From a virus (lineage: Duplodnaviria; Caudoviricetes), in IMG/VR virus record IMGVR_UViG_3300037518_000150, positions 1-24,432 of that record: 24,432 nucleotides of DNA; one strand, written 5' to 3'. Position 1 is the first letter of the stretch. The number at the start of each line of letters is the position of its first letter. A program made the position numbers and the translations under genes. Positions 1,109 through 24,432 of the stretch are shown one piece after another. The notes under the pieces were generated by a model. That model did not search any database and was not told where the DNA came from. It worked only from the letters and a program-made list of their open reading frames with translations.

Positions 1109-3342
1109 TTTATATGCTCCTTAAAAAATAATGCTCTCAATTCTTCGAGTTGTTTATTCAACTCAATTATTTGCAGCTTTTGATTTTGCATTTCAGAAAT
1201 CATATAGGCCATGACCACCCGGTTGTCGTAATTTTTGACATTTTTATTTTCATCGTATTGAGCCGCTTCCGGCAGTAACTTTGCCACATCTTCGGCAATA
1301 AGTCCATATCCTTTTTGTCCGTTATTCGCTGATTTCTTATTCCACTTAAATGAAACCGGCCTGAAATTTAAAATATCTGTTTGCGGATTCCAGTTTTTTA
1401 CGTTTGACTTGAAACGCTTTGAGCTGGTTTCTTCAACAATTTGGTCTGTATTGGCTACGCGGGAAAGCTGTGTTCCTGTGCCACTGCCGAGGCCTTCCAT
1501 GTAAATATTGCCATTTGCGCCGTTTATCGTAAAAGCTGAATCAACGCCTGCTGATTCAAAGCGAATATCTACATCCTGCCCATCTTCATTAAATATTAGT
1601 AACCCCTCATTTACCGAACCATTGTATCCAGATGCCTTTATAAAATTTCTTTGCTGAGCATCCATCGAAACGTCAAACCTAATCTCACCAGCCCAATCAT
1701 TTAAAGTCACATCCACAGCGTAAGCCTCTATCCATCCAAAACCCCTAATCAAATCCCCAGAATCGTACCCAGACCAATTCAATGAACCTAAAATATCACC
1801 ATCCGCCGGAGATTCTGAGTCGAGTATAAATCTAAACCATGCACCCTCATTTCCGTCTTGGTCGCTTTCAAGAACAATCTTTGGACTCGCCGTTCCAGAT
1901 GTGCTATAAATATGCAATTCTCCCTCTGGCGAAGAAATTCCGCCAATTCCGACACCAGTTCCACTTTGAGTTAAAATTAAATTACCGCTATCATCAACTG
2001 TTATGCTTGCCGAATCGTCTTGTGCTGTGTCCATAATATGTATCGAATTATCTCCAGCATCGGATGGCTTTAAAAAACTCCCCGCGTCCGTCCATTGTCC
2101 GCCACCTGCATTAGCTAACGTAAATGTTGAATTTGCTCCCATGCCGGTTGTGTCAAAATAAACACTTTTATAGGTTAAGTCAGCATTAATATATAGAGAA
2201 TCTTCGGCGGCATCCAAGACTAAAGCGGTTGCAAGATTATCACTTTCAACAACTAAATCCCAATCATGGGAATCCTGGTTAAAGGTTACCCGGCCTTCTC
2301 CAACTGCGCCAAAGTGCCCGTCTATTTCAAAGACAGTCGAGCTTGTTTGATTAATATCAACATCTATATCTAATTGACCAGATTCATCATCAACGGTAGG
2401 GTGAGAATTTTTTGCAATAATCTCAACGAAGTCGTTTTTACCAGCGCCAGAATTATTAGTTGCAAAACTGATTCTTGCAATTTCGTCCGACGCAGCCGGT
2501 GAGCTTGTGTTTAAGTAGAACTCAAGACTGGGGCCTACAGTGCCGGTATTCTCACTTTCTATCAGAAAATCAGGGCTACCGGAAATATTGTCGTAAAAAT
2601 GCAAATCTTCTGTCGGCGAGGCCGTGCCAATTCCTACATTTATATCTGCGTTTGTAGGATTTAGATTGATATAACCGGAACCCACAACGCCCGTATATCC
2701 ATCCAAAGCCATAAACTCGGTTGTCGTATTATCCAGCAAGTTGTAAAACCTTGTAGAACCTGCCGCATCAGCTGCCGTAGCGTCCTCAGACAAAAAAGTA
2801 ATCGTTGAATAATTTGTAAGAAGATTGGTCGAGCCTCTGCCCTGCCCTATAATTGAGCCAAGTAAATCATTGTCAGCCGGCGATGAAGAATCAAGCAAAA
2901 GAACAATTCCACCGCCTTGCGTTCCGCCCTGCTCACTTTCAACTGTCACAAATGGCGTACCGCTTGAGGCATCATAAACATGCAAAGGTGATGATGGAGT
3001 CGTTAACCCCATCCCTACATCCCCTGCATTTGAAATATAGATTGGCACTATTGACTTATCGCCAAGATAAAGATTACCGCTTGCATCTACCCGGATGATT
3101 GTATCCGTTGCGGCGACAACTCTGATACCGGCCTGATTGAAAACAAGTTCTCGGGCAAGCTCAAGCTTGAAATTATCCCACTCAAACCGGCGGGTTGCGT
3201 AATTCCCTGAACCGGATGTATCTACCGAAACCAGAAATATAGAATCATCTTCAAAGTCTGTGGCCTCGGTTAACTGGCTTAATTTAACTTGGCCAAATGC
3301 CATCGATGAAAACAATAGTAACAATAGTAATATCTTTTTCAT
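1105..3342 (-). CDS. Tail fibre/spike with C-terminal intramolecular chaperone (Peptidase_S74-like) and N-terminal signal peptide
   Basis: C-terminal SSKRFKSNVK...RPVSFKW...YGLIAEDV..LLPE plus coiled coil. Three internal repeats (VG[MI]G..P...LH.Y...ESE..G...L[DN][ST].SPA). N-terminus MKKILLLLLLFSSMAFG|Q. Confidence 0.85.
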   Translation of the reverse strand: MKKILLLLLLFSSMAFGQVKLSQLTEATDFEDDSIFLVSVDTSGSGNYATRRFEWDNFKLELARELVFNQAGIRVVAATDTIIRVDASGNLYLGDKSIVPIYISNAGDVGMGLTTPSSPLHVYDASSGTPFVTVESEQGGTQGGGIVLLLDSSSPADNDLLGSIIGQGRGSTNLLTNYSTITFLSEDATAADAAGSTRFYNLLDNTTTEFMALDGYTGVVGSGYINLNPTNADINVGIGTASPTEDLHFYDNISGSPDFLIESENTGTVGPSLEFYLNTSSPAASDEIARISFATNNSGAGKNDFVEIIAKNSHPTVDDESGQLDIDVDINQTSSTVFEIDGHFGAVGEGRVTFNQDSHDWDLVVESDNLATALVLDAAEDSLYINADLTYKSVYFDTTGMGANSTFTLANAGGGQWTDAGSFLKPSDAGDNSIHIMDTAQDDSASITVDDSGNLILTQSGTGVGIGGISSPEGELHIYSTSGTASPKIVLESDQDGNEGAWFRFILDSESPADGDILGSLNWSGYDSGDLIRGFGWIEAYAVDVTLNDWAGEIRFDVSMDAQQRNFIKASGYNGSVNEGLLIFNEDGQDVDIRFESAGVDSAFTINGANGNIYMEGLGSGTGTQLSRVANTDQIVEETSSKRFKSNVKNWNPQTDILNFRPVSFKWNKKSANNGQKGYGLIAEDVAKLLPEAAQYDENKNVKNYDNRVVMAYMISEMQNQKLQIIELNKQLEELRALFFKEHIN

Positions 3343-3344
3343 GT

Positions 3345-3881
3345 TTACTCCGTTATGATTTCAAGGCCGCCTGTTTCAGTGATTATCGTATCTTCGGTAA
3401 CTTCGGTAATAATCCCGCCGCTCACAATAGGCGGTGCGGCTGACTGTTGTAATCTTAAATTTTTAGTTGAAATAAATTTCAGTATTAAAGCATCTCCCGG
3501 CTCATTTAATCCGTTCGGTATCGAATTAATATAAAACGGCTCAATCTCAGAAAACAGAAAAGGAACTTCGTTTCCAAGACTGTCTTTAATCGGCTCATTG
3601 TCTCTATGCCGGTAAAGAGTTACCAGGTCATAAAGATTATCGTTTAAAGTATTATATTTAGCCAGCCTTGCAGCTTCGTTGCCATATTTGAAAAGATGAA
3701 CAATAACCTCATATTCCCATCCATATTCACGATTAAAAAATGTTCTTGAGCCGTCTATTTCCGATACCTGCGCTAAATTATCAAAGACAGGATTATCCAA
3801 TTCCACCTTTGCGTGGTCAATGTTTATATCCACCCCGGAGCTATTTTTAATTTTTGGGCTTTGTGTGCCGAATATGCTCAT
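3345..3881 (-). CDS. Putative distal tail/baseplate protein, paralogue of 4023..4454
   Basis: Position after tape measure/hub. Shares MSIFGTQSP/MGIWGTSSP and W.[YF]EV..HL[FY][KR].G.E. C-terminal IITE repeats. Confidence 0.55.
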   Translation of the reverse strand: MSIFGTQSPKIKNSSGVDINIDHAKVELDNPVFDNLAQVSEIDGSRTFFNREYGWEYEVIVHLFKYGNEAARLAKYNTLNDNLYDLVTLYRHRDNEPIKDSLGNEVPFLFSEIEPFYINSIPNGLNEPGDALILKFISTKNLRLQQSAAPPIVSGGIITEVTEDTIITETGGLEIITE

Positions 3882-4026
3882 AAGCCTGCTCTACTATTTC
3901 TCTTTTGTCAAGTGAGTTGTGGATAACAATCATTTCATCGTTTTCAATTTCAACCCGCGGATTACACCAACAGTGTGTTGCCTCAACATGTTCTTTTAAA
4001 TCATTTACCGGCAATACATTTATCAT
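3847..4026 (-). CDS. Small His/Cys protein (59 aa)
   Basis: Hand-translated MINVLPVNDLKEHVEATHCWCNPRVEIENDEMIVIHNSLDKRE...; ATGA overlap with the upstream gene; fills the gap in the operon; H/CWC/H putative metal ligands. Confidence 0.7.
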   Translation of the reverse strand: MINVLPVNDLKEHVEATHCWCNPRVEIENDEMIVIHNSLDKREIVEQAYEHIRHTKPKN

Positions 4027-4454
4027 GCCGCCGCGCTCAAACTTATATCTACATAATCCTTACTTTCAAACCTGCAAAATAATCCGGTCTCGTAGTTTAC
4101 CGTAGTTAGCTCAACCGGCCTGAGCGAAGCAAAGTAGAACTCAACATCTCCTGAGGCATTCTGTAAAAAGTCATGGTCTGAGTAAGGCTTAATATAAACA
4201 TCCGTATGTAACAATTCTGCAAGCTCGATGTATTTGTTGTAAGTTTCCGCGCCGTGCCTATACAAGTGAGTCAAAACTTCAAATATCCACCAGTAGCCTT
4301 TCGTGATAAATTGCTTATTTGAAGAAATCGGATTTTTTTGTTCGAGCCGGTCAAAAGAAGCCTTGTTTGCCTGTATAACAGAATAACTCAAAGCAATTTC
4401 AACAGAGCTTGAAACTACTTTTATCAAAGGTGAACTCGTACCCCATATTCCCAT
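4023..4454 (-). CDS. Putative distal tail protein, paralogue of 3345..3881
   Basis: Synteny and visible similarity to 3345..3881. Confidence 0.55.
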   Translation of the reverse strand: MGIWGTSSPLIKVVSSSVEIALSYSVIQANKASFDRLEQKNPISSNKQFITKGYWWIFEVLTHLYRHGAETYNKYIELAELLHTDVYIKPYSDHDFLQNASGDVEFYFASLRPVELTTVNYETGLFCRFESKDYVDISLSAAA

Positions 4455-6028
4455 TATTCCGGCTCCCCTCCACCAGATGCAACGCCTAAATAAATTGCAT
4501 CTATTATTGTCTCATTTTTTTCAAAATCTTTTTCAATTCCTATTATCTGGTATAAACCGTTAGCATAAACAGTACCCTTTAGGAAATCATAATTTACGCC
4601 CCGGCAAATCATTCTGTCAACACGGCAATTTTCTATATTGCTTCTGAAGTGATACCAAAATTCCGCAATCAGTTTTCCGTTATCATAAGTCGATGGAAAA
4701 TCTTCTAATGACGGGTCATTACCTGCGAGTATGCTATTATTCCCGGTTGTGCTAAATACATTCGTCCCATTCCCCCCAAAAGCTGTATACCAAAACGGGA
4801 TAACTTCTTCGATAATTAATCGCCTGTTTTCGTCTGCGGTATATACTCCGGCGTCATAATGAACAACGTCTGATGAAATTGTCTTAACAAGCACATACTC
4901 CAGCAATCCAAATCGATAGGATTTTTCATGTTTTAAAACCTGTGTCAATGTTTGCGTATCACCAGAATTGTAATAAAACAATTTATGAAAAAACGCCTTC
5001 CCTTCGTGTATCATTCCGGTAAAAGCACAAAAATGTAAAGCAAGTAATTTCAAAAAATCCTTCACACTGCTCAGTCCGGATGGTGGGGATTGCGTTAAAG
5101 TATTGCCGGCAACGTAACTCGTTGTCAACATTGATACCTCGTCAAAAGTATAATCCGGGGCGCCGCCAAGTTCAGAAAAAACCCAGTTATGGACAACACT
5201 CAAATCATCCGGGTAAACTATTCCACCACCAACTTTATTATAAGCATCAGTTAAAATAAAAACAAGCTGGCGCGTCAATGCTCCGGCAAAATCATAAACA
5301 ATTCCAATTATCGTTGCGCTTGGAAAATATCCTGATTGAGTAGTTGCTACATCGATATAAAAACTCGTTGAATTAATCCTGGTAACATATTTCCATCCGG
5401 CAGCATCAGACGGAGCCGAGCCGTGTGTTACAACTATCTTTACCAAATCCCCGGTTTGAAAATCATTATTCGGAGTTGGGATTGTTCCGTAGGTAACTTT
5501 TAATCTACCGTTTGTCGAATCTTGTTCAATCCCATAAATCGGGTCTTGTGCGCCGGTATTTAAATAATTAAAATTATCAGTTGGCTCCCCATTTTCATTA
5601 AACACAGCCTCGTTGAGCAAAACAGTATTCGGTGTTGCTGTAAACGACACCTCAAATAATCCGGTATCAGACTTTATACTTCGCTCATCTACAGTACCAA
5701 CAAATTCAGTCGCACCGTTCAAAAGCAATGTAACTTTAAATTGTTTAACAGTTGCAGCCTGTTCCGCCGAACTGCCATACAAAAGGCCGTCCAGATAACC
5801 TGCTTTGTCTCCAATCGTGAACTCCATTTCGGAAGGAACTAGCAATGGGTCGTCAAGTTCATATTGAAGTTTTAATGTTCCATACTTCATAACCTCAATG
5901 TTCTTTTCGCTCGCCTGATAGGATTGATTTCCGGCTGTTAAATCAACTGTAAACTGCAATTGTAGCTCAACATAATCAGAATCATTAACATAAGCCGCCG
6001 GAAAGTCGATTGTAATAGTATAACTCAT
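4454..6028 (-). CDS. Putative baseplate hub/tail tip protein
   Basis: Directly after tape measure (4-nt overlap); beta-rich; ends YQIIGIEKDFEKNETIIDA, like hub C-termini. Confidence 0.55.
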   Translation of the reverse strand: MSYTITIDFPAAYVNDSDYVELQLQFTVDLTAGNQSYQASEKNIEVMKYGTLKLQYELDDPLLVPSEMEFTIGDKAGYLDGLLYGSSAEQAATVKQFKVTLLLNGATEFVGTVDERSIKSDTGLFEVSFTATPNTVLLNEAVFNENGEPTDNFNYLNTGAQDPIYGIEQDSTNGRLKVTYGTIPTPNNDFQTGDLVKIVVTHGSAPSDAAGWKYVTRINSTSFYIDVATTQSGYFPSATIIGIVYDFAGALTRQLVFILTDAYNKVGGGIVYPDDLSVVHNWVFSELGGAPDYTFDEVSMLTTSYVAGNTLTQSPPSGLSSVKDFLKLLALHFCAFTGMIHEGKAFFHKLFYYNSGDTQTLTQVLKHEKSYRFGLLEYVLVKTISSDVVHYDAGVYTADENRRLIIEEVIPFWYTAFGGNGTNVFSTTGNNSILAGNDPSLEDFPSTYDNGKLIAEFWYHFRSNIENCRVDRMICRGVNYDFLKGTVYANGLYQIIGIEKDFEKNETIIDAIYLGVASGGGEPE

Positions 6029-8557: not shown

Positions 8558-8947
8558 TTAAGTAAACTGTGCCGCAGTTGTAGCGCCGTCTAATTGAAAT
8601 GTATAAGTCGCAAATGCCGGGTCACTGCCTGCGGGATTTATAGTTATCCCCTTATTAACAATTGTACCGTTTGTCCAAGACCAGGATTTATCGGTTGTCC
8701 CATCTTTTGCGTTTAAAACAAACGTTCCGGTGTCACCTTCAACCGGCTCGGCTGTAGCGTCGTCGAGGAATAGTTTACAAGTAAGGCTTCTCGCTACTCT
8801 TCCGGCTAAAAACTCCCTGCCATCACCCCCAGTGTTACCGTCAGTAGCATCACCCTGTTCAACGTCAAATGTTGCATTAATATCGATTGCATAAAAGGTT
8901 GTACCATCAAACACAATCTTCCCGGCTGTTGGGATAAACTTTGCCAT
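8558..8947 (-). CDS. Tail tube protein, copy 2
   Basis: Size, position and D.TD...G.GREFLAG motif typical of siphovirus tube proteins; about 83% identical (hand count) to 8970..9362. Confidence 0.75.
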   Translation of the reverse strand: MAKFIPTAGKIVFDGTTFYAIDINATFDVEQGDATDGNTGGDGREFLAGRVARSLTCKLFLDDATAEPVEGDTGTFVLNAKDGTTDKSWSWTNGTIVNKGITINPAGSDPAFATYTFQLDGATTAAQFT

Positions 8948-8969: not shown

Positions 8970-9362
8970 CTATGTTAATTGTACCGCAGTAGTCGCACCA
9001 TCAAGCTGGAAAGTATAAGTCGCAAATGCAGGGTCGCTACCGGCCGGGTTAATTGTTATCCCCTTGTTTACGATAGTCCCGTTTGTCCAAGCCCACGACT
9101 TGTTTGTTGATGCACCAACTTTCGCAGTCAACAAAAACGCACCGGTTGCGCCTTCAACTGGCTCGGCCGTACCGTCCTGTAAAAACAGTTTGCACGTGAT
9201 ACTTCTCGCTACTCTACCAGCCAGAAACTCTCTTCCGTCACCGCCGGTATTCCCATCCGTAACGTCTCCCTGTTCGACGTCAAATGTTGCGTTAATATCA
9301 ATTGCGTAATATACAACCGTTGCAAAAGTTATAAATCCGGCTGTTGGGATAAACTTTGCCAT
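8970..9362 (-). CDS. Tail tube protein, copy 1
   Basis: Same motifs as 8558..8947; SD AAGGA upstream. Confidence 0.75.
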   Translation of the reverse strand: MAKFIPTAGFITFATVVYYAIDINATFDVEQGDVTDGNTGGDGREFLAGRVARSITCKLFLQDGTAEPVEGATGAFLLTAKVGASTNKSWAWTNGTIVNKGITINPAGSDPAFATYTFQLDGATTAVQLT

Positions 9363-16857: not shown

Positions 16858-18294
16858 TTAACCCCAACTTGTTTTAATTGACATTCTTTCTTTTACACCA
16901 GTAAGCGCATCAGGCGCATCATCAGCCTGGCCTTTCATTTTCATATTAAAAGACAGCACGTCTCTTGCAAAATCCGGCCATCTGTGTATCCAGTTCTCAG
17001 GCATTCTTACAACTTCGAGCACGTTGTTGGATTGAGACCGAATACGCGATTCTTTGTTCTTTTTTTGATGAAATGCCATAACCGATATATGATGTCCAAT
17101 GGCGGCGCATTCTTTTTTCACGTTTCTTGAGTACGCCCGCCCGCCTGCGTTTGATTCAAAGTCACCGTCTTTAATGTCATTTTCTTTTAGCTTTGATGCA
17201 AGCTCCGGCTCTGTCGTTGGTGCGTCCGCTTGAGAATAGTAAACATCAACAACATAGGCTATATCCATATAAACGATATACATTATCGCGCAAACCCAAT
17301 CGCTACCCTCATCGGCAGAATCAACATAAGCTTTGCGGGCTTCGCATGTTGCCGGAAGTTCGTCGTAAGTCCTTATACCTGTATACAAACACCCTTCAAT
17401 TGCAACGATCCTTTGCAGGTAATTTGCTGAATGTATCGCCCGGCTTACCGGGTTACTGTTGCGCTCCGCTAAAACCTTGATTCTTTCGTACGCTTCACGT
17501 GACAACATTTCCTCACAAAGCATATCTCCATTTTCATCAATAACTGGCTTTGAAAGCACAAACCACTCCCCGGGCTCATCTTTGACCACCCGGCCAATCG
17601 GGTCATTCTCAGACCACCGCGTAGCACATATCACCTCAATCGGGATACCGCCGTCACTGCCCTCGGTTCTCGACGCATAGGTTGATACATACCAGGTATA
17701 AAGTTTGTCCAGGTGGTTTTCGTTCATGGCTTCTTCGTTATTCTTGACTAAATCGTCAAGTATTTTGATATTGCCGCCCTTACCTGTAAGGCTGCCACCG
17801 GGAGATGTTGCCAAAAAACTAAAGTGTTTCCCCTCAAGCGCCCATTTATTGCGGGAGCGGTCGTTTTGCTTTAAAAGAACATCAGGAAATATATCGCTAA
17901 AAATTATATCATCCGGAGAGTTCTTCTCTTCCTCGATTTCGGTTCTTACGTACTTTCCGTAATCACCTGATTCGATTTCGTTATAACTCCCGGCAATAAT
18001 CTTGTTGTTGTTATCTTTACCTAAACACCATGAGACAAAATGAACCAGGGTGCGGGTTTTCCAATGGCGCGGCGGGTAAGATAACGCAATCCGGCGGTAT
18101 ATCTTTCCGCTGCTATCTATCGGTAGTCCATAATAAACATTATTCAGAACGGTACAAAGCTCCTGTAGATGCGGAACCTGATACTTCTCAGAATCTAAAT
18201 ACTGGCAATAGTGCCAAAAAGACCGGCGCGCCAGTTCAATTTGGGTTTTTCTTAACAGGCTTTTTCTTGCCTGTGTCGATAAGGCTACTTGCAA
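16858..18294 (-). CDS. terL: Terminase large subunit
   Basis: ELARRSFW, Walker A-like PPRHWKT, GGSLTGKGG, Walker B ILDD, TRW...DP.G, nuclease YVDSA..GSD, FESN.GG, DDAPDALTG. Exact start uncertain (TTG overlapping terS). Confidence 0.93.
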   Translation of the reverse strand: MQVALSTQARKSLLRKTQIELARRSFWHYCQYLDSEKYQVPHLQELCTVLNNVYYGLPIDSSGKIYRRIALSYPPRHWKTRTLVHFVSWCLGKDNNNKIIAGSYNEIESGDYGKYVRTEIEEEKNSPDDIIFSDIFPDVLLKQNDRSRNKWALEGKHFSFLATSPGGSLTGKGGNIKILDDLVKNNEEAMNENHLDKLYTWYVSTYASRTEGSDGGIPIEVICATRWSENDPIGRVVKDEPGEWFVLSKPVIDENGDMLCEEMLSREAYERIKVLAERNSNPVSRAIHSANYLQRIVAIEGCLYTGIRTYDELPATCEARKAYVDSADEGSDWVCAIMYIVYMDIAYVVDVYYSQADAPTTEPELASKLKENDIKDGDFESNAGGRAYSRNVKKECAAIGHHISVMAFHQKKNKESRIRSQSNNVLEVVRMPENWIHRWPDFARDVLSFNMKMKGQADDAPDALTGVKERMSIKTSWG

Positions 18295-18670
18295 GGTTAA
18301 TTAAATCCTTTGTGTCAAGTTTCTCAAGTTCTTTTTGAATAGGTTCTTCTTTATAAGTTATAGTACCAGAATGCTCTATATCTTGCCTATCTCGCCATTC
18401 CGCAGAACGTCGATTTTTCAACCAGTATATTTGAGCGGTTACGTTCCCCTGCGTTGCCTGCTCATACAGACTGGATATAACTTTTGAATCTGCTTTTAGT
18501 TTACCCATTTTTATGGTGTGTAGAAATCTTTCATTCTCTTTTTTCATTGTGTGTAAAGTTTTTCTGCACACTCCGATAAAATCAGCAATCTCTTCGTCGG
18601 TGAGCCCCAGCGCAGCAAGCTTTTCAAGCTGCTCGTAATCTATATTTATTTTGGTTTTATGTCTCGCCAA
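18236..18670 (-). CDS. terS: Terminase small subunit
   Basis: HTH GLTDEEIADFIGVCRKTL, GNVTAQIYWLKNRR..WRD; SD GGAGAGGAG before TTG. Confidence 0.85.
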   Translation of the reverse strand: MARHKTKINIDYEQLEKLAALGLTDEEIADFIGVCRKTLHTMKKENERFLHTIKMGKLKADSKVISSLYEQATQGNVTAQIYWLKNRRSAEWRDRQDIEHSGTITYKEEPIQKELEKLDTKDLINLASSLIDTGKKKPVKKNPN

Positions 18671-19135: not shown

Positions 19136-19244
19136 GGAAATTTTGAGCACATCGAGCGTCCCTTGTTAAATATTTCCATTTAATTAAAAGTTAAAACTCT
19201 TTTCCGTTTTCGGCTTTATGCAAAACCCAGTTAGGTTGCTTAGT

Positions 19245-19351
19245 GGATGACGCCACGGATTCCTGATAGCGCCGAGTCGCCGAATCGAACAGCAACTCAA
19301 CCTCAGCCAGAGAACGCCTCGTGCTCAGTTGCACAAACCGTAGCGCCATCC
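19245..19351 (-). ncRNA. Candidate structured RNA with T-loop-capped 12-bp helix
   Basis: 14-bp closing stem GGAUGGCGCUACGG/CCGUGGCGUCAUCC; hairpin UUUGUGC-AACUGA-GCACGAG; GUUGAGUUGCUG-UUCGAUU-CGGCGACUCGGC. Non-Watson-Crick positions in these stems are G.U only on the minus strand. Confidence 0.6.
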
Positions 19352-19363
19352 TTTAAACAACCC

Positions 19364-19504
19364 TCATGGTTTATCGCCGTGCTTCGCGCGCCTGAAAATT
19401 GCGTTAGTACTGCGCACTTTGATTCCAAAACAATATTGCCAATTCTTCTTATTTTCGCCGGTTTTTTTATTTAAGTAGGCCTTTTCTTTTTCGTGTGAAA
19501 ACAT
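19364..19504 (-). CDS. Short ORF (46 aa) starting inside the repeated attC arm
   Basis: MFSHEKEKAYLNKKTG..., same SD and N-terminus as 21045..21275; may be a remnant. Confidence 0.3.
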   Translation of the reverse strand: MFSHEKEKAYLNKKTGENKKNWQYCFGIKVRSTNAIFRRAKHGDKP

Positions 19505-19545
19505 TTTAATTTTTCCTTTCGCGCCGGTTATGCCTGGCGTTATGC
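19456..19545 (+). repeat. Partial attC (loop + right arm), direct repeat of 21227..21313
   Basis: 19456-19532 vs 21227-21301 differ by 2 substitutions and a 2-nt indel. L' GGTTATG, R' GTTATGC (19539-19545). Left arm not found. Confidence 0.75.
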
Positions 19546-20181
19546 TGACCTAAAATCTTTATGTTTAATTTTCGTAATCAAGCGTGACCCGTTTCGGCAT
19601 AGTAATTCTGTTTTGGGACGGGCGACTATTCCCTCAGCAAGGAAATTGCCCCAGATACTATTGAACCCTTTTCGTGTTTGCTCAACCATTTCTGTTAAAG
19701 TTCCTTCGCCAATTATCGGCACAACATCTAACCCAAAAAATTTGGCTATATCTTCAACGTCCTCTCTCTGTAACCACCATTCACCAATTTTAACATCGAA
19801 CAAAACAAAGTCTTGGTCTTGTCTATAATTCCCACCACCTTTTTGTATTTTAGCTCCGTAACCTTCCCCATATAAACAAACGCCTGTTGTTTCCACGCCA
19901 AATTTTTCAACGAACTGTTGTGCCTGTGGTAAAAATCTATCTTGTAATTTCTTAACTAAAAAAGCTGGTATTTGTGCGTTGTCCGTTTTACCACCGAAGG
20001 CAATATCCTTGCCGTCCCACATTACCCTTATGTTTGTTCCGTCAACTTTTTCTGTGAATACCCAAGTATTATTTTTTATGTAATCAAATTCTGGAAGGGA
20101 ATAGTCGCCCTCTAATAATGTTTTGTGATTGGTCAACGGGTCACGCTTGAAGATGGTTTGTATTTTTATGTATTCTTTCAT
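19540..20181 (-). CDS. RNA ligase (Rnl2-like nucleotidyltransferase domain)
   Basis: Motifs I TEKVDGTN, III LYGEGYG, IIIa FVLFDV, IV EGIV, V KIK. Start re-called at MKEYIK with SD GGAG. Stop TAA lies inside the R' box. Confidence 0.85.
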   Translation of the reverse strand: MKEYIKIQTIFKRDPLTNHKTLLEGDYSLPEFDYIKNNTWVFTEKVDGTNIRVMWDGKDIAFGGKTDNAQIPAFLVKKLQDRFLPQAQQFVEKFGVETTGVCLYGEGYGAKIQKGGGNYRQDQDFVLFDVKIGEWWLQREDVEDIAKFFGLDVVPIIGEGTLTEMVEQTRKGFNSIWGNFLAEGIVARPKTELLCRNGSRLITKIKHKDFRSA

Positions 20182-20199
20182 CCTTACTCCTAAACGGCA

Positions 20200-20331
20200 G
20201 CCTAACAAGCAAATCAAGCCGAATTACTTGCTCGGTGCGGTTATTTTAATTAGTTAATATGTTTTGTTTAGTTATCAATTTTAGTTTCTTACCTTTAAGC
20301 CGTAATCGGCTTATTTGCAACATCGTTAGAG
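20200..20331 (+). mobile_element. attC: attC site (132 bp)
   Basis: R'' GCCTAAC, L'' AAT[C]AAGC, CG[A]ATTAC...GTAATCG, L' GCTTATT, R' GTTAGAG; AT-rich loop; right spacer slightly long (9 nt). Confidence 0.85.
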
Positions 20332-20335
20332 TTGC

Positions 20336-20764
20336 TTAAAACTCATATGTAGCTCCACTCCACCCGTGAAACATGTCTGGCCTTCCTGTCCATCTTAAAA
20401 CAGGGCGATGATTTTCAAAGTCCCATCTTGTTCTCACTTGATAGCTTTCCCAGGTATCAATCCAGGCCGTACATCCTTCTGGATAATACTCTGAGTAACA
20501 ACTTGCCTCGGTTGCCCTTACGGCAACCTTTTCGTTTAACTCCAATTCTTTTATTTTATGAATCACAAGTTGCACATCGCGTACAACTTGATTGTCATCT
20601 TCATTTTTTATAGCTTTTTCAAGCTTCTCAATAAGTATTTTCCCGTTTTCAAATACCTTTTCTTCTTGATGTGCACGGGAAAACACTTCTTTCAGACAAC
20701 TTTTTAGTCCAAAAATTTGGACTGTCATTTCTTTTTGACGCCCTTCTTTTAAATATCCTATCAT
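20336..20764 (-). CDS. Hypothetical cassette protein (142 aa)
   Basis: Start re-called at MIGYLK (SD GGAG, ATGA overlap with upstream stop); Trp-rich C-terminus. Confidence 0.65.
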   Translation of the reverse strand: MIGYLKEGRQKEMTVQIFGLKSCLKEVFSRAHQEEKVFENGKILIEKLEKAIKNEDDNQVVRDVQLVIHKIKELELNEKVAVRATEASCYSEYYPEGCTAWIDTWESYQVRTRWDFENHRPVLRWTGRPDMFHGWSGATYEF

Positions 20765-20958
20765 TTTTCTCTCCTGCGGCATAACCGCGTTTTAACATAA
20801 CACATTTTATTAAAATCCCACCAAAACCTTAACCCACAATTGCAAACATAACCGCAAGACGAATTGCCTCTAATTGTCAATCCACAATCACATTGCTGCA
20901 ATTCAAAATATTTTGATTCATGCAAAGAATCCAAAAATTGCCTTTTTTCTGTTTTCAT
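20761..20958 (-). CDS. Small Cys-rich protein (65 aa)
   Basis: CDCG...CNCG; SD AAGGA. Confidence 0.6.
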   Translation of the reverse strand: MKTEKRQFLDSLHESKYFELQQCDCGLTIRGNSSCGYVCNCGLRFWWDFNKMCYVKTRLCRRREK

Positions 20959-20995
20959 GGTTTTTTTAAATCCTTTTAGTTTTATTAACGTTTCT

Positions 20996-21050
20996 TTCTA
21001 ACCCGTAAATCCAGCCGACCAAAAAGCGGCGGCTGATTAGGGCGTTAGTG
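20996..21050 (+). mobile_element. attC: attC site (55 bp)
   Basis: TTCTAAC-CCGTA-AAT[C]CAGC-CG[A]CC...GGCG-GCTGATT-AGGGC-GTTAGTG. Confidence 0.88.
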
Positions 21051-21275
21051 ACCAAATTGCTTTAAATATTCCGCTATATGAATAAAATTTTCTTTAACAA
21101 CAGCCCGATAATTTAAATCAAATCTATCTTCCCCTGGATAATATTCGCGAGCATATTGCTCCGCTAATTTATCAAGTTTTTTATCTGTTAGTTTACTAAC
21201 ACTAACATCAACCGGACGATTATTCGCGCCGGTTTTTTTATTTAAGTAGGTCTTTTCTTTTTCGTGTGAAAACAT
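21045..21275 (-). CDS. Hypothetical cassette protein (76 aa) whose N-terminus is encoded within attC
   Basis: SD AAGGA and ATG lie in the attC loop; stop TAA lies in the R' box at 21044-21050. Confidence 0.65.
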   Translation of the reverse strand: MFSHEKEKTYLNKKTGANNRPVDVSVSKLTDKKLDKLAEQYAREYYPGEDRFDLNYRAVVKENFIHIAEYLKQFGH

Positions 21276-21313
21276 TTTAATTTCCTTTCGCGCCAGTTAT
21301 GTTTTTGTTAGGC
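21194..21313 (+). mobile_element. attC: attC site (120 bp)
   Basis: TACTAAC-ACTAA-CAT[C]AACC-GG[A]CG...CGCC-AGTTATG-TTTTT-GTTAGGC. Confidence 0.82.
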
Positions 21314-21559
21314 CTTTTTAATCCGTTTAATTATTTCAACTAACTGCCTGCGTTCTACCTCAATAGCACCGTGCTGAATCGCAAGAGCACGCTTTTGTTG
21401 ACAAATATCATAATGAGGCACATTCTTGTTTTGAAACCATTTCCGACGAACTCCTATCTTGTCAGCCATCGCGTGCAATTCAGAATTACTATCTGCAAGC
21501 ATATGACACATCTTCATTCTACCGTAATGATTTTGTGCTTTATCAACGTATACTGGCAT
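21308..21559 (-). CDS. DUF4031-like protein
   Basis: MPVYVD...CHMLADS..ELH.MA.KIG..RKWFQ....HYD.......A...GA pattern. Start codon in R'', stop codon in R'. Confidence 0.8.
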   Translation of the reverse strand: MPVYVDKAQNHYGRMKMCHMLADSNSELHAMADKIGVRRKWFQNKNVPHYDICQQKRALAIQHGAIEVERRQLVEIIKRIKKA

Positions 21560-21612
21560 AACTTTTCACTCAAGCGGACGCAAAAAACGCGCCGCTTAGT
21601 TCCGCGTTAGGT
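21556..21612 (+). mobile_element. attC: attC site (57 bp, classic 59-base-element type)
   Basis: GCATAAC-TTTTC-ACT[C]AAGC-GG[A]CGC...GCGCC-GCTTAGT-TCCGC-GTTAGGT. Confidence 0.92.
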
Positions 21613-21673: not shown

Positions 21674-22084
21674 TCACGCGCCATACCACCCATGAAACAA
21701 TTTTTCAAAATCCTCGAAATGCTCAACGCGGTACACGTTAAGATTGTTAGCCCACTTGCGTTGATTCTGCCGAAGTTCCCGACCTTTTACTTTCAACTCG
21801 ACGGCAAGGCATGAATTGTAATCCCCGGATTTTCTTATCAATATCAAATCCGGTATCCCGCCGAAAGCCTTACCCGTAATACTTTGCAGAAAAGAATTTC
21901 CAAGACCATAGATTATTTTCCAGAAAACATCAGGAACTCGAATCGAACGAACATCGGGATAATACTGAAGAAAGTCCTCGCACTGGCTTTGCAATGTTTC
22001 CTCTGTTTCTTTCATATTGCGGAACTCGCTCGCAGAGATAACATTTCGACCGGTCTGAGCTTCTTTTGAAAATTTAAGTTTCAT
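21674..22084 (-). CDS. VRR-NUC-like PD-(D/E)xK nuclease (possible resolvase)
   Basis: E..LQ, GIPDLIL, VELKVKG, Q..W motifs. Confidence 0.8.
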   Translation of the reverse strand: MKLKFSKEAQTGRNVISASEFRNMKETEETLQSQCEDFLQYYPDVRSIRVPDVFWKIIYGLGNSFLQSITGKAFGGIPDLILIRKSGDYNSCLAVELKVKGRELRQNQRKWANNLNVYRVEHFEDFEKLFHGWYGA

Positions 22085-22155: not shown

Positions 22156-22184
22156 AATATAACACTATTTAAGTTAAATGTCAA
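22156..22184 (-). promoter_or_regulatory. Near-consensus sigma70 promoter
   Basis: TTGACA-17 bp-TATATT with AT-rich upstream tract; points into the nuclease gene and cassette array. Confidence 0.7.
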
Positions 22185-22201: not shown

Positions 22202-24432
22202 CTAACCGCTTTTCTTTGATTTAATCCATTTGATTCTTTGATACTTTAGCCAATTCAAGACTGCTTCGTTTGCCGGTTCAGCCTTGACTCCTTCCATGTT
22301 ACGCGGCCACACGTCAAATTTGCTTTTGTACTGAGCGAGTAACCAGCTATTTGATTTCCCAAGCCGTTTCTGTTCTGATAGGAACATTGCATACCATTTG
22401 CGCTTATCTTCGGTTGTGTATTTCTTTTCTTTTTTATCTTCTTTTCCGTTTCGTGACACTTCAACCATAGCGCCCCGAATAATCTTTACATGGCTTTTTC
22501 TTAAGTCACCTTCTCGCTCATAACCACAGGATGGGCATTTTTTCCCTCTGAATAACGTCCGGCATTTCGGGCATGGCTTCGGAGGTCTGGCCTTGACGAT
22601 TTTCTTTTTAACCTTTCCGTCATCTAATTCATCTGGGAGTGGATCATCCGGAAAACAATCAAGACGTTCTATGTTTCCTGCATGGTCTAAAATGAGGCAA
22701 TGGCCTTTTCCTTCGTGCGCTCTCAGTCCCCGGCCTAACGCCTGAATGTGCCAAATGAGCGAACAAGTCGGACGGGCGATAGAAAGACATTCAACATCAG
22801 TTACGTCAAATCCCTTAACTACCATATCGACGCTAACTAATACCTTGAACTCGTTTTCCTTAAATTCCCGAATAACCCGTTGCGGAGATTCTCCGTTGCG
22901 CTCCATGTAGCAGTCAACTTTTTTAGCTGTTACACCCGCCGCAATGAATTTTTCGGTTATCTCTTTCGCGTGAGCCACGTTGGTTGCAAAAACCATCGTC
23001 TTTCGATTATCAGCAAGCTCTAGCCAGGTCTCAACAATATCCTCAATCAGCACTTTTTTATCCATGCGCTCACCGGCTGTTTTCATGTTGAAGTCCCCGG
23101 CCTGTTTTTTAACGCCTTCCATGTCAGGCATAACCTTACCCAAAATCGCCCGGTAATTCGACAAGTATCCTTCACGCATAAGCTGACCCATGCTCGGCCC
23201 CGTCACGAGAGTCTGCCAGTGCAGACCAAGCCCCTTAGTCCACGGCGTTGCGCTCAGCCCAACCCAATACGAAGAATCCCATTTTTGCATTAACTCGAAC
23301 TGATGTTTGTACGCTGTATGAAATTCATCAACAATACAAAAATCGGCCGGTAATACAGCCCTGTTTTTTAAAGTCTGAATCGAGCATATCTGCAAATTTT
23401 CACTTGGCCTGTTCATGGAATTATTGCCCTGAAGTATGCCAAAAGAAAATCCATCGTCGTAAAATCTTTTGGCTGTTTGGTCAATCAGGCTTAACCGGTC
23501 ACAAATAAAATAAACCCGCTTTCCTGAGCGAACAGCCGGGTCAATCATCATTTGCCCGATTCTCGTGTTATGCGTTACAGTAAAATCACCCAATAGAAAA
23601 CGACCATCTCCGTCTAATTCAAAACCAAACCAATTTCCATATCCAGCATCCTCAATCTTTATACCATGAACTAAATGACGTTTCTTTTGTAGTCTTTTTT
23701 CTGCTTTTTTATCTTTACATGGTATCCTCTCGCAATCACCACTAACTGAGCATCGATAATAGGTACCCTCAAAATTCAATGACTTTATTCTCTTTTTGCA
23801 CTTTTTCACATAGGCAGAAAGTCCAACAGACCGGCATAAAAACGCAAAATCATCGGACAACTTCTTTTCTTTTGTAATCCAGTCATAACCACCATTTGAA
23901 TAATGTCCATCGGAATCAAGTAATCCTGCAAGCAATTCAAGCCTTTGATTAATGCTTCCAGTTAAATAATTTTGCGGAATAAACTTCCTGGTTTCAATAC
24001 ATTCTTTTCTTAAAATATTTAAAACTGGATTAGTTTTGCCTCTTTTTGTAACAAGAGACCAACTATCACAACGTGTTCCATTTGCATTGTTTATTCTTAA
24101 ATGACAGCCAAGACTTTCTCCCCATTTTACCCATTCTTTTGTCAAATTACATTTTGGTTTTGTTATGCTTGGCATCCTTGAAGTACCGTCTCCCAAATAT
24201 ACCCCAACTATATATGGCGGAATTTTTAAGACTTGCTCATTTTTACTAAACTCTATTGCTTCAGACCTCCATCCTTTCAGTAAATGCTTTGCCGAACTGC
24301 TACTGTTCATAAAAACTTCAACATTGACATCGACTATACTTTCTTCGTTTTCTATTATTTTTCCGTTAAACAAAGCAATCCGATCGGTTGTATTTGTTTT
24401 TTTTAAACAAAGTATATGTTCTTTATTGCAAA
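22202..24432 (-). CDS. SF2 helicase (YejH/RadD-like) interrupted by an intein; 5' end outside window
   Basis: DEFH, GLSATP, GFD, QALGRGLR, LDHAGN, CPKC..CPSC. Frame is open to the window edge. Confidence 0.9.
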   Translation of the reverse strand, partial: CNKEHILCLKKTNTTDRIALFNGKIIENEESIVDVNVEVFMNSSSSAKHLLKGWRSEAIEFSKNEQVLKIPPYIVGVYLGDGTSRMPSITKPKCNLTKEWVKWGESLGCHLRINNANGTRCDSWSLVTKRGKTNPVLNILRKECIETRKFIPQNYLTGSINQRLELLAGLLDSDGHYSNGGYDWITKEKKLSDDFAFLCRSVGLSAYVKKCKKRIKSLNFEGTYYRCSVSGDCERIPCKDKKAEKRLQKKRHLVHGIKIEDAGYGNWFGFELDGDGRFLLGDFTVTHNTRIGQMMIDPAVRSGKRVYFICDRLSLIDQTAKRFYDDGFSFGILQGNNSMNRPSENLQICSIQTLKNRAVLPADFCIVDEFHTAYKHQFELMQKWDSSYWVGLSATPWTKGLGLHWQTLVTGPSMGQLMREGYLSNYRAILGKVMPDMEGVKKQAGDFNMKTAGERMDKKVLIEDIVETWLELADNRKTMVFATNVAHAKEITEKFIAAGVTAKKVDCYMERNGESPQRVIREFKENEFKVLVSVDMVVKGFDVTDVECLSIARPTCSLIWHIQALGRGLRAHEGKGHCLILDHAGNIERLDCFPDDPLPDELDDGKVKKKIVKARPPKPCPKCRTLFRGKKCPSCGYEREGDLRKSHVKIIRGAMVEVSRNGKEDKKEKKYTTEDKRKWYAMFLSEQKRLGKSNSWLLAQYKSKFDVWPRNMEGVKAEPANEAVLNWLKYQRIKWIKSKKSG
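23567..24432 (-). mobile_element. Intein with LAGLIDADG homing endonuclease (N-terminus outside window)
   Basis: Block B CNKEHILCL, block C PYIVGVYLGDG, block E LLAGLLDSDG, block G FLLGDFTVTHN followed by +1 Thr. Confidence 0.92.

What the first reader, a model, noticed from the sequence alone, without database searches (positions are those of the whole stretch)
19230..21612. Integron-like attC cassette array inside a phage genome with all cargo ORFs inverted
Seen: four complete attC sites (20200, 20996, 21194, 21556), each with R''/L''/L'/R' boxes and both canonical extrahelical bases, all with the top strand on +, plus partial sites at 19539 and 19230. They delimit units of 786, 719, 263 and 299 bp. 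Each R'' matches the R' at the START of its own unit at 6/7 but the R' now paired with it at only 5/7, which is what excised circles that later inserted would leave behind. Established: cassette ORFs normally lie on the attC top strand. Here every ORF is on the bottom strand, co-directional with the phage genes, and no IntI is in the window. Inference: a phage-adapted cassette system that uses a host or distant phage integron integrase to exchange accessory genes.
Basis: partly seen in the sequence, partly recalled or inferred. Interest (0 to 1): 0.92.

Follow-up and report, generated by a model that had tools for sequence, protein, structure and literature searches.

The report
Backwards integron cassettes swapped between phages
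This phage carries four small gene units separated by integron-type recombination hairpins, with the genes facing the opposite way to those in bacterial integrons, and one unit also sits, cut at the same two points, in an unrelated phage, so phages likely trade such genes with an integron enzyme probably borrowed from the host.

Summary
Confirmed. Four attC-type sites (20200, 20996, 21194, 21556; top strand +) lie between a VRR-NUC gene and terS of a tailed-phage fragment. A covariance model built from bacterial sites alone scores them 26-52 bits, next best 10. All cargo ORFs are on the bottom strand; 3 of 4 units end with their stop codon in R'. The RNA-ligase unit (19539-20328) recurs at 97% identity in an unrelated phage, homology ending at both G|TT cores. 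This shows mobility and fixes the crossover at the canonical R', so the inversion is real. In a survey, cargo was bottom:top 68:27 in viral contigs and 3:29 in bacteria (many calls ambiguous). No IntI in the window (35% complete); four near-complete phages with inverted sites encode no tyrosine recombinase, one encodes IntI. Best reading: a mirror-polarity CALIN worked by host IntI in trans (inferred, untested). Phage CALINs are published (PMC9892861); the polarity was not found in 7 literature searches, though two of that paper's phages show it. This scan has noted the same layout on other DNA many times (113 notes). No excision junction or variant of this phage was found.

The parts
20200..20331 (+). 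attC site A (132 nt; R'' 20200-20206, unpaired C 20215 and A 20222, R' 20325-20331; long 12-nt L'-GTT stretch)
   Evidence: 52.4 bits; same site at 97% in L002
20996..21050 (+). attC site B (55 nt; R' 21044-21050)
   Evidence: 33.5 bits; z -2.5
21194..21313 (+). attC site C (120 nt; R' 21307-21313); the 76-aa ORF starts inside it
   Evidence: 26.5 bits
21556..21612 (+). attC site D (57 nt; R' 21606-21612); DUF4031 start codon lies in its R''
   Evidence: 43.5 bits; weak blastn match (E 0.2) to the attC after lnu(F) in a class 1 integron
19449..19545 (+). decayed attC: right two-thirds of a copy of site C, R''/L'' lost; supplies the G|TT (19539) that opens unit 1
   Evidence: not hit by CM
   Evidence: sequence; no CM hit
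19211..19236 (+). L'-R' half-site of the long-spacer type, G|TT at 19230 (weak)
   Evidence: sequence; no CM hit
19540..20325 (+). cassette unit 1 (786 bp), shown mobile
   Evidence: 97.2% over 790 nt in L002/L003 with both ends at G|TTA; loose ends at 19539 and 20328 in run X22
19540..20181 (-). RNA ligase (PF09414; 213 aa from ATG 20181, 225 aa from TTG 20217); stop codon is the TTA of R' at 19540-19542
   Evidence: 11 synonymous vs 6 non-synonymous codon differences to L002, 12 of 17 changes at third positions
20326..21044 (+). cassette unit 2 (719 bp) with two orphan ORFs
20336..20782 (-). 148-aa ORF, no homologue found; stop 11 nt from R'
20761..20958 (-). 65-aa Cys-rich ORF, no family
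21045..21307 (+). cassette unit 3 (263 bp)
21045..21275 (-). 76-aa orphan ORF; starts within site C, stop codon in R' at 21045-21047
21308..21606 (+). cassette unit 4 (299 bp)
21308..21559 (-). DUF4031 protein (83 aa); start in R'' of site D, stop in R' at 21308-21310
22156..22184 (-). sigma-70-like promoter consensus (11 of 12, extended -10) upstream of VRR-NUC; candidate driver of the cassette genes
   Evidence: best of 12 matches; total count not above shuffles, so consensus only
21674..22084 (-). VRR-NUC nuclease, right flank
18236..18670 (-). terminase small subunit, left flank
   Evidence: phrog_309

Best explanation
The region is an array of four integron-type gene cassettes in a tailed phage whose genes lie on the attC bottom strand, in line with the phage's own genes, and the cassettes are likely moved in and out by an integron integrase (IntI) supplied in trans, most probably by the host. 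Shown: four attC sites with canonical extrahelical bases; cargo on the bottom strand; one unit shared with an unrelated phage and cut at the canonical R' G|TT at both ends. Inferred from established integron biochemistry: the bottom strand folds into a hairpin, IntI cuts at G|TT, units leave by attC x attC and enter by attC x attC or attC x attG (a bare GTT, as at the non-attC left end in L002). Inferred: there is no attI/Pc. The genes would be read from a phage promoter at the far end of the array (22184), so each cassette has its hairpin in front of the gene and its stop codon at the crossover. The likely role is exchange of small accessory genes (RNA repair, unknowns) among phages that share IntI-bearing hosts.
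For: Sites. Polarity calibration: the same scanner puts aadA2 and lnu(F) of a class 1 integron on the top strand, and 18 of 20 sites in 3 chromosomal IntI arrays have top-strand cargo (1 bottom, 1 none; 16 IntI regions fetched, 13 without detected sites). Mobility: 19539-20328 is 97% identical in L002/L003, a phage with different terminase and portal proteins and no other blastn match to the window; homology stops at both GTTA. The unit includes site A and excludes the 19449-19538 site, so the crossover is at R' on +. Other inverted arrays also break at GTTA (L332/L262, L320/L143). Class: viral sites 68 bottom, 27 top, 62 ambiguous, 6 too short of 163; bacterial 3 bottom, 29 top, 14 ambiguous, 3 short of 49. 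IntI link: a 100%-complete phage has IntI (461.8 bits) beside two sites with a bottom-strand ORF between them (L363); a Bacteroidota-titled contig has IntI (441.6 bits) followed by two top-strand and then two bottom-strand cassettes with long-spacer sites (L301). In trans: 4 of 5 near-complete phage records with inverted sites have no PF00589 hit; the complete L002 phage has only a non-IntI integrase. IntI over cut-off in 29 of 151 genomes of the class of G006. Published: 5 of 6 phage attC sites recombined with attI1 by IntI1 (PMC9892861, section 3.4).
Against: No recombination was tested. No joint in the contigs of 8 runs, and no relative of this phage with different content: TerL searches found only identical copies. 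Only 1 of 4 units was seen elsewhere, and in one other phage (L002, L003, L200/201 and runs X21/X22 look like the same phage). The window is 35% complete; about 14 kb of a 42-kb contig could not be read and might encode a recombinase. The left end is decayed, which fits a relic. The host is unknown. In the survey 62 of 163 viral sites were ambiguous and 27 were top; ORF calling was by length only; loci are not independent. I removed 5 phage-like contigs from the bacterial set after seeing them; with them the bacterial count is 29 top to 10 bottom.
Confidence: 0.62

Rival explanations
1. Same cassettes and chemistry, but this phage encodes its own IntI in the part of the genome that is not in the window.
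For: Window 35% complete; 2 of 30 viral records searched hold an IntI over cut-off (both were included because an IntI-like ORF had already been seen).
Against: No recombinase next to the array, nor in the extra 3.9 kb to its right. 0 of the other 28 records had IntI; 4 of 5 near-complete ones have no tyrosine recombinase at all.
Confidence: 0.13
2. The array is a relic: cassettes were placed by IntI long ago and are now fixed phage genes, with the sites decaying or serving as homology for ordinary phage recombination.
For: Decayed copy at 19449-19545 and two half-sites; no variant in 8 runs; site C has two non-standard pairs.
Against: Unit 1 is 97% identical, site included, in an unrelated phage, so it moved recently. 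Its left end in L002 shares only GTTA with the window, too little for homologous exchange. Three sites are near-perfect.
Confidence: 0.15
3. A different enzyme, a short Xer-like tyrosine recombinase of phages or hosts, works these hairpins rather than IntI.
For: A complete phage with long-spacer inverted sites (G010) encodes a 213-aa tyrosine recombinase that is not IntI, about 33 kb from the array. An earlier scan note proposes this for Bacteroidota phages (unchecked).
Against: Sites follow IntI-type attC grammar and score on a model of IntI-associated sites. Long-spacer sites sit beside true IntI in L301 and. Four near-complete phages lack any such gene.
Confidence: 0.07
4. The polarity is mis-assigned: the enzyme uses the other strand, so the genes are canonical relative to the real crossover.
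For: attC sites are quasi-palindromic; both strands read R''...R'.
Against: The shared unit contains site A to its R' on + and lacks the site at 19449-19538; use of the other strand predicts the opposite boundaries. CM score for site D is 43.5 on + and 8.9 on -.
Confidence: 0.02
5. Chance hairpins or terminators between phage genes.
For: Folding z-scores are modest; no Rfam family.
Against: 0 comparable sites in 60 controls; four CM hits clustered in 1.4 kb on one strand; exact breakpoints.
Confidence: 0.01

Closest known systems
CALINs in bacteriophage genomes (Qi et al. 2023, PMC9892861: TJE1, PH101, P12002L, MW202573)
   Same: Clusters of attC sites without IntI inside phage genomes; small accessory genes; sites recombined by IntI1 in 5 of 6 cases tested there.
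   Different: The paper does not describe cargo on the bottom strand ('antisense' 0, 'opposite' 0 occurrences) and shows no cassette shared between phages. Re-scored here: TJE1 is canonical (3 sites +, ORFs +), MW202573 has 4 sites top=- among + ORFs, and P12002L attC1 is top=+ among - ORFs. So the inversion is in their data set but unremarked in the text. PH101 and the 13 other phages were not checked.
Sedentary chromosomal and class 1 integrons (IntI, attI, Pc, attC cassettes)
   Same: attC anatomy, two extrahelical bases, G|TT crossover at R', head-to-tail array, R'' matching the unit's own starting R'.
   Different: No intI, attI or Pc seen; genes on the bottom strand with the hairpin 5' of the gene and the stop codon in R'; heterogeneous sites (55-132 nt, two spacer classes); cargo are ordinary phage gene families; expression would come from the far end.
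attG insertion / SALINs (bioRxiv 10.1101/2022.09.11.507474)
   Same: Cassette insertion at a bare GWT site outside an integron matches the non-attC left end of the ligase cassette in L002.
   Different: Shown for bacterial chromosomes with canonical cassettes; the passages read do not deal with phage arrays or inverted cargo.

Membership tests
attC site | R'' (RYYYAAC) and R' (GTTRRRY) boxes with conserved AAC/GTT | tested here: met
   all four sites, with 1-2 degenerate outer bases
attC site | L''/L' pairing with extrahelical bases that mark the recombinogenic strand | tested here: met
   unpaired C and A on + (G and T on -) in 4 of 4; same pattern as class 1 sites and the aadA7 oligo in PMC9892861 Table S3
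attC site | hit by an attC covariance model | tested here: met
   own model of 46 bacterial/plasmid sites: 26.5-52.4 bits; the IntegronFinder and HattCI models themselves were not available
attC site | recombined by IntI, bottom strand preferred | not testable with these tools
   needs an assay; breakpoints in L002 fit it
integron gene cassette | unit from G|TT to G|TT found in another context | tested here: met
   unit 1 only; units 2-4 not found elsewhere
integron gene cassette (canonical) | ORF on the attC top strand, ending at R'' | tested here: not met
   cargo on bottom strand in 4 of 4 units, 2 verified by protein family
CALIN | two or more clustered attC sites | tested here: met
   four within 1.4 kb
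CALIN | no integron integrase nearby | tested here: met
   none in the window or in the overlapping 12.7-kb record; rest of the genome unread
complete integron | intI gene adjacent to the array | tested here: not met
complete integron | attI site and Pc promoter at the top-strand 5' end | tested here: inconclusive
   only decayed attC halves at 19230-19545; no strong + promoter there; no general attI model exists to test with

The most novel reading that the evidence does not exclude
Phages keep their own mirror-image cassette pool, made from ordinary phage genes when IntI recombines an antisense attC with the gene's own stop codon (TAA-C read as G|TTA) as an attG site. The mirror polarity insulates the two pools: promoterless host cassettes, many of them anti-phage, land antisense and silent in phage arrays, while phage cassettes sit silent in host integrons as a reservoir.
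Probability: 0.25. Interest if true: 0.9.

Novelty: new variant of a known kind. Interest (0 to 1): 0.66.

Why it matters
Integron cassettes are held to be built so that the gene faces the Pc promoter, and phage attC clusters have been read as stray pieces of bacterial integrons. Here the cargo is phage-type, faces the phage's own transcript, and one cassette has demonstrably moved between two unrelated phages at the exact crossover points. If IntI does this, integrons are a site-specific route to phage mosaicism that needs no homology. The stop-codon-at-crossover anatomy (3 of 4 units here, 15 of 32 flanked inverted cassettes in the survey, against 4 of 41 and 3 of 61 in non-cassette homologues) gives a concrete handle on the open question of how cassettes arise. 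This window is one more example of a layout that the scan has flagged on many other phages; its own contribution is the clean cross-phage transfer.

Tried and rejected
Rfam scan of the window: 0 matches at E<=1. TerL searches in viral and metagenome contigs gave only identical copies (2 and 1 loci), so content could not be compared between close relatives. Reads: 24 runs listed, no RNA holder listed; 8 laid, all as assembled contigs, no joints; contigs drop rare variants, so this says little. Depth in X1 was 108/96/90 across left flank, array and right flank; not interpreted. blastn of the array against 50,697 phage records: only coding matches to RNA ligase and DUF4031; site A alone gave chance hits. 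A half-site pattern scan was mostly chance: 7 of 123 loci (5 contigs) held a full site. CM over 44 RNA-ligase and 79 DUF4031 homologue loci: 0 hits, so these families are not usually cassette-borne. No empty-site relative of the L002 insertion point (2 hits, same phage). PADLOC: 0 of 5 cargo proteins. ESM Atlas: nothing usable for the 65-aa ORF or the L301 ORF. Capsid homologues (99 hits, best non-self 59%) gave no host. Host: TerL matches in 14 of 301 genomes of the phylum of G006, best 41%, with four more window proteins at 22-48% nearby; only that phylum was searched, so it is a weak hint. The R''/R' scar as evidence within the window: 12 of 120 permutations, rejected as significant (one search had an off-by-one start and was redone). 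My scanner missed the published P12002L and MW202573 sites; the CM found them weakly (21-23 bits). No look-alike of this stretch among earlier scan notes.
Full report
Setting. The window is the whole held record, a linear virus fragment estimated 35% complete. All recognisable genes run on the minus strand: helicase with an inserted homing-endonuclease domain, VRR-NUC, the array, terS, terL, SPP1-type portal, scaffold, capsid, neck and tail genes, tape measure, tail fibre. The same phage occurs at 100% identity in three other records, one a 42-kb metagenome contig of which only 14.6 kb could be read. Holders are sediment and soil metagenomes.

The sites. Four sites at 20200-20331, 20996-21050, 21194-21313 and 21556-21612 read, on +, R'' + 8 nt + unpaired C + six paired bases + unpaired A, then the variable part, the L' arm and GTT. 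A scanner for this grammar scores them 15.4-18.0; 60 Markov controls gave none at 14 or more. On a class 1 integron the scanner calls the strand bearing aadA2 and lnu(F) 'top', and the aadA7 oligos in the supplement of PMC9892861 show the same pattern, so polarity is calibrated. A covariance model from 46 bacterial and plasmid sites, none from the window, finds exactly these four on + (52.4, 33.5, 26.5, 43.5 bits; next 10.1). Caveat: training loci were fetched with a pattern from site A and picked by my scanner, so site A's score is favoured; IntegronFinder's own model was not available. Site A has a 12-nt stretch between the L' core and GTT. This long-spacer type recurs in loci titled Balneolaceae, Saprospirales, Bacteroidales and Bacteroidota, and an 11-nt type lies beside true IntI genes in the class of G006 (class name Ignavibacteria recalled from the record title 'Melioribacter'). 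Left of the array lie a decayed 93% copy of site C (19449-19545) and half-sites at 19403 and 19230; none scores on the model.

The cargo. Units of 786, 719, 263 and 299 bp carry an RNA ligase, two orphan ORFs, a 76-aa orphan and a DUF4031 protein, all on the bottom strand. The ligase frame is under purifying selection against its L002 copy (11 synonymous, 6 non-synonymous codons). Units 2 and 3 rest on ORF length alone. In units 1, 3 and 4 the stop codon is the TTA of G|TTA, so the gene ends at the crossover; DUF4031 starts in R'' and the 76-aa ORF inside site C. A strong promoter consensus on - at 22184-22156 precedes VRR-NUC and is the natural candidate to drive the array; this is a consensus match only.

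Mobility. Window 19539-20328 is 97.2% identical over 790 nt to L002 (and L003), and nothing else in the window matches those loci. L002 has a different large terminase and portal; its record is 37.5 kb, 100% complete, with one tyrosine recombinase that is not IntI (49.8 bits against a cut-off of 265). Homology starts and stops at GTTA; left of it L002 has no attC, right of it another cassette with a second long-spacer site. Run X22 shows the same two loose ends; these records look like one phage, so this is one independent context. The shared unit includes site A and excludes the site at 19449-19538. That fixes the crossover at R' on +, as in canonical integrons, and rules out a strand mix-up. 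Breaks at GTTA were also seen between L332 and L262 (one end) and L320 and L143 (both ends). Against ongoing activity: no joints in 8 of 24 listed runs, all contigs, and no variant of this phage.

Is the inversion a phage trait? Using loci from pattern scans (the last returned 130 of about 240 stretches, 80 with full flanks) and a length-based ORF rule: viral 68 bottom, 27 top, 62 ambiguous, 6 short of 163 sites; bacterial 3 bottom, 29 top, 14 ambiguous, 3 short of 49. By locus, 37:15 with 8 ties against 2:21 (Fisher p 5e-7, relatedness not corrected). Five contigs from bacterial MAGs were set apart after inspection because their genes looked phage-like (my reading); they gave 7 bottom, 0 top, and with them the bacterial count is 10:29. 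In 15 of 32 inverted cassettes flanked by two sites the stop codon lies at +1 of R'. In non-cassette homologues a stop reading TAA-C occurs in 4 of 41 ligases and 3 of 61 DUF4031 genes, and in 2 of 28 other window genes; the ligase ends at its family's usual length, DUF4031 at the short end. None of 44 ligase and 79 DUF4031 homologue loci has an attC hit, so ordinary phage genes have become cassettes. The trait is not exclusive: TJE1 is canonical, L002's second cassette has top-strand ORFs, and a bacterial IntI array holds two inverted cassettes after two canonical ones (L301). Their phage origin is not shown (one weak PHROG hit).

The enzyme. None in the window or its 12.7-kb twin record. IntI over cut-off in 2 of 30 viral records, both chosen for it; in one, a complete phage, the ORF between two sites is on the bottom strand (no family hit). 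Of 5 other near-complete records with inverted sites, 4 have no tyrosine recombinase and one a 213-aa non-IntI enzyme far from the array. So such arrays persist without a cis recombinase, and IntI is common in plausible hosts (29 of 151). Host assignment stays weak.

Mechanism. Established (PMC8946536, passages; 10.1101/2022.09.11.507474, passages): IntI recombines the folded bottom strand, about 1000-fold over the top; this fixes cassette orientation; insertion also occurs at bare GWT (attG) sites. Applied here (inference): units leave by attC x attC and enter at another attC or a bare GTT; since recombination keeps top-strand polarity, every unit enters facing the phage transcript. Two consequences are predicted, not shown. 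Canonical promoterless host cassettes, many of which are anti-phage (10.1101/2024.07.02.601686, passages; 10.1101/2024.07.02.601719, search listing only), would enter such an array antisense and silent. And an antisense attC upstream of a gene ending in TAA-C could capture that gene in one attC x attG excision, which would explain the stop-at-R' anatomy; selection for compactness explains it as well. Whether the bottom strand lies on the lagging-strand template, which raises excision (PMC5371416, passages), cannot be told without the phage's replication mode.

What is known. PMC9892861 (read: parts 1-4 of 7 of the text, abstract to conclusion; supplement part 1 of 2; figures and the Dryad annotation file not seen, and they may show orientation) reports 17 phage CALINs and IntI1 recombination of 5 of 6 phage sites. 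It calls TJE1 and PH101 typical and notes divergent sites in P12002L, but not bottom-strand cargo. Re-scoring shows MW202573 with 4 of 4 sites inverted and P12002L attC1 inverted. Seven searches of the paper library found no description of inverted cassettes in phages; subscription journals are largely missing from that library. PMC8876359 (passages) mentions antisense promoters in ORF-less cassettes only. The scan's own notes hold 113 findings with these words, 8 shown, describing the same layout in other phages; they are unchecked and are not counted as support.

Verdict. A real CALIN of genuine attC-type sites, not a complete integron and not canonical in cassette polarity: a new variant of a known kind. 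Interest 0.66: surprising to integron specialists and directly testable, but phage CALINs are published, the enzyme and activity are inferred, and only one of four units was caught elsewhere.

Noticed in passing
L301:2666-6343: Complete bacterial integron (record titled Bacteroidota; IntI 441.6 bits) whose third and fourth cassettes have bottom-strand ORFs, the third with its stop codon in R'; long-spacer sites like site A. Suggests host and inverted pools mix.
   Followed up: partly
L197 (G002), L396 (G013), L397 (G012): Viral contigs with 6-10 inverted attC sites in a row (methyltransferases, ligase-like and small ORFs); L197 holds two near-copies of one 125-aa ORF.
   Followed up: partly
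L330 (MW202573) 2069-3738; L329 (P12002L) 30005-30059: Published phage CALINs whose sites are inverted relative to the surrounding ORFs, not remarked in the paper's text.
   Followed up: yes
L363 (G014) 3640-5792: Complete phage with its own IntI next to a second tyrosine recombinase and two attC sites with phage-direction ORFs.
   Followed up: partly
L002:3052-3779: Top-strand, probably self-promoted two-ORF cassette in the second phage, next to the inverted ligase cassette; array sits between terL and portal.
   Followed up: partly
window 20778-20784: An R''-like box holds the first ATG of the 148-aa ORF, as for DUF4031; possibly the remnant of a lost attC inside unit 2.
   Followed up: no
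window 19449-19532 and 21220-21301: 84-nt 93% direct repeat; recombination between the copies would drop 1771 bp (units 1-3). Assemblies break here in runs X1, X4, X5.
   Followed up: partly
window 22202-24373 (extends beyond the window; 838 aa in L322): Helicase interrupted by a homing-endonuclease/LAGLIDADG domain, with intein-like ends (intein reading is recalled, not tested).
   Followed up: no
window 8558-8947 and 8970-9362: Two tandem paralogous 129/130-aa ORFs at the tail-tube position.
   Followed up: no
L262, L272, L279, L320, L302: Contigs binned in bacterial MAGs (Paceibacterota, Babeliales, Melioribacter, Methylococcales titles) that carry inverted attC arrays among phage-like genes; L262/L279 are near-identical to viral contig L332.
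   Followed up: partly
L470:1393-2034 (G010): 213-aa catalytic-domain-only tyrosine recombinase beside a terS-like gene in a complete phage with inverted long-spacer sites.
   Followed up: partly
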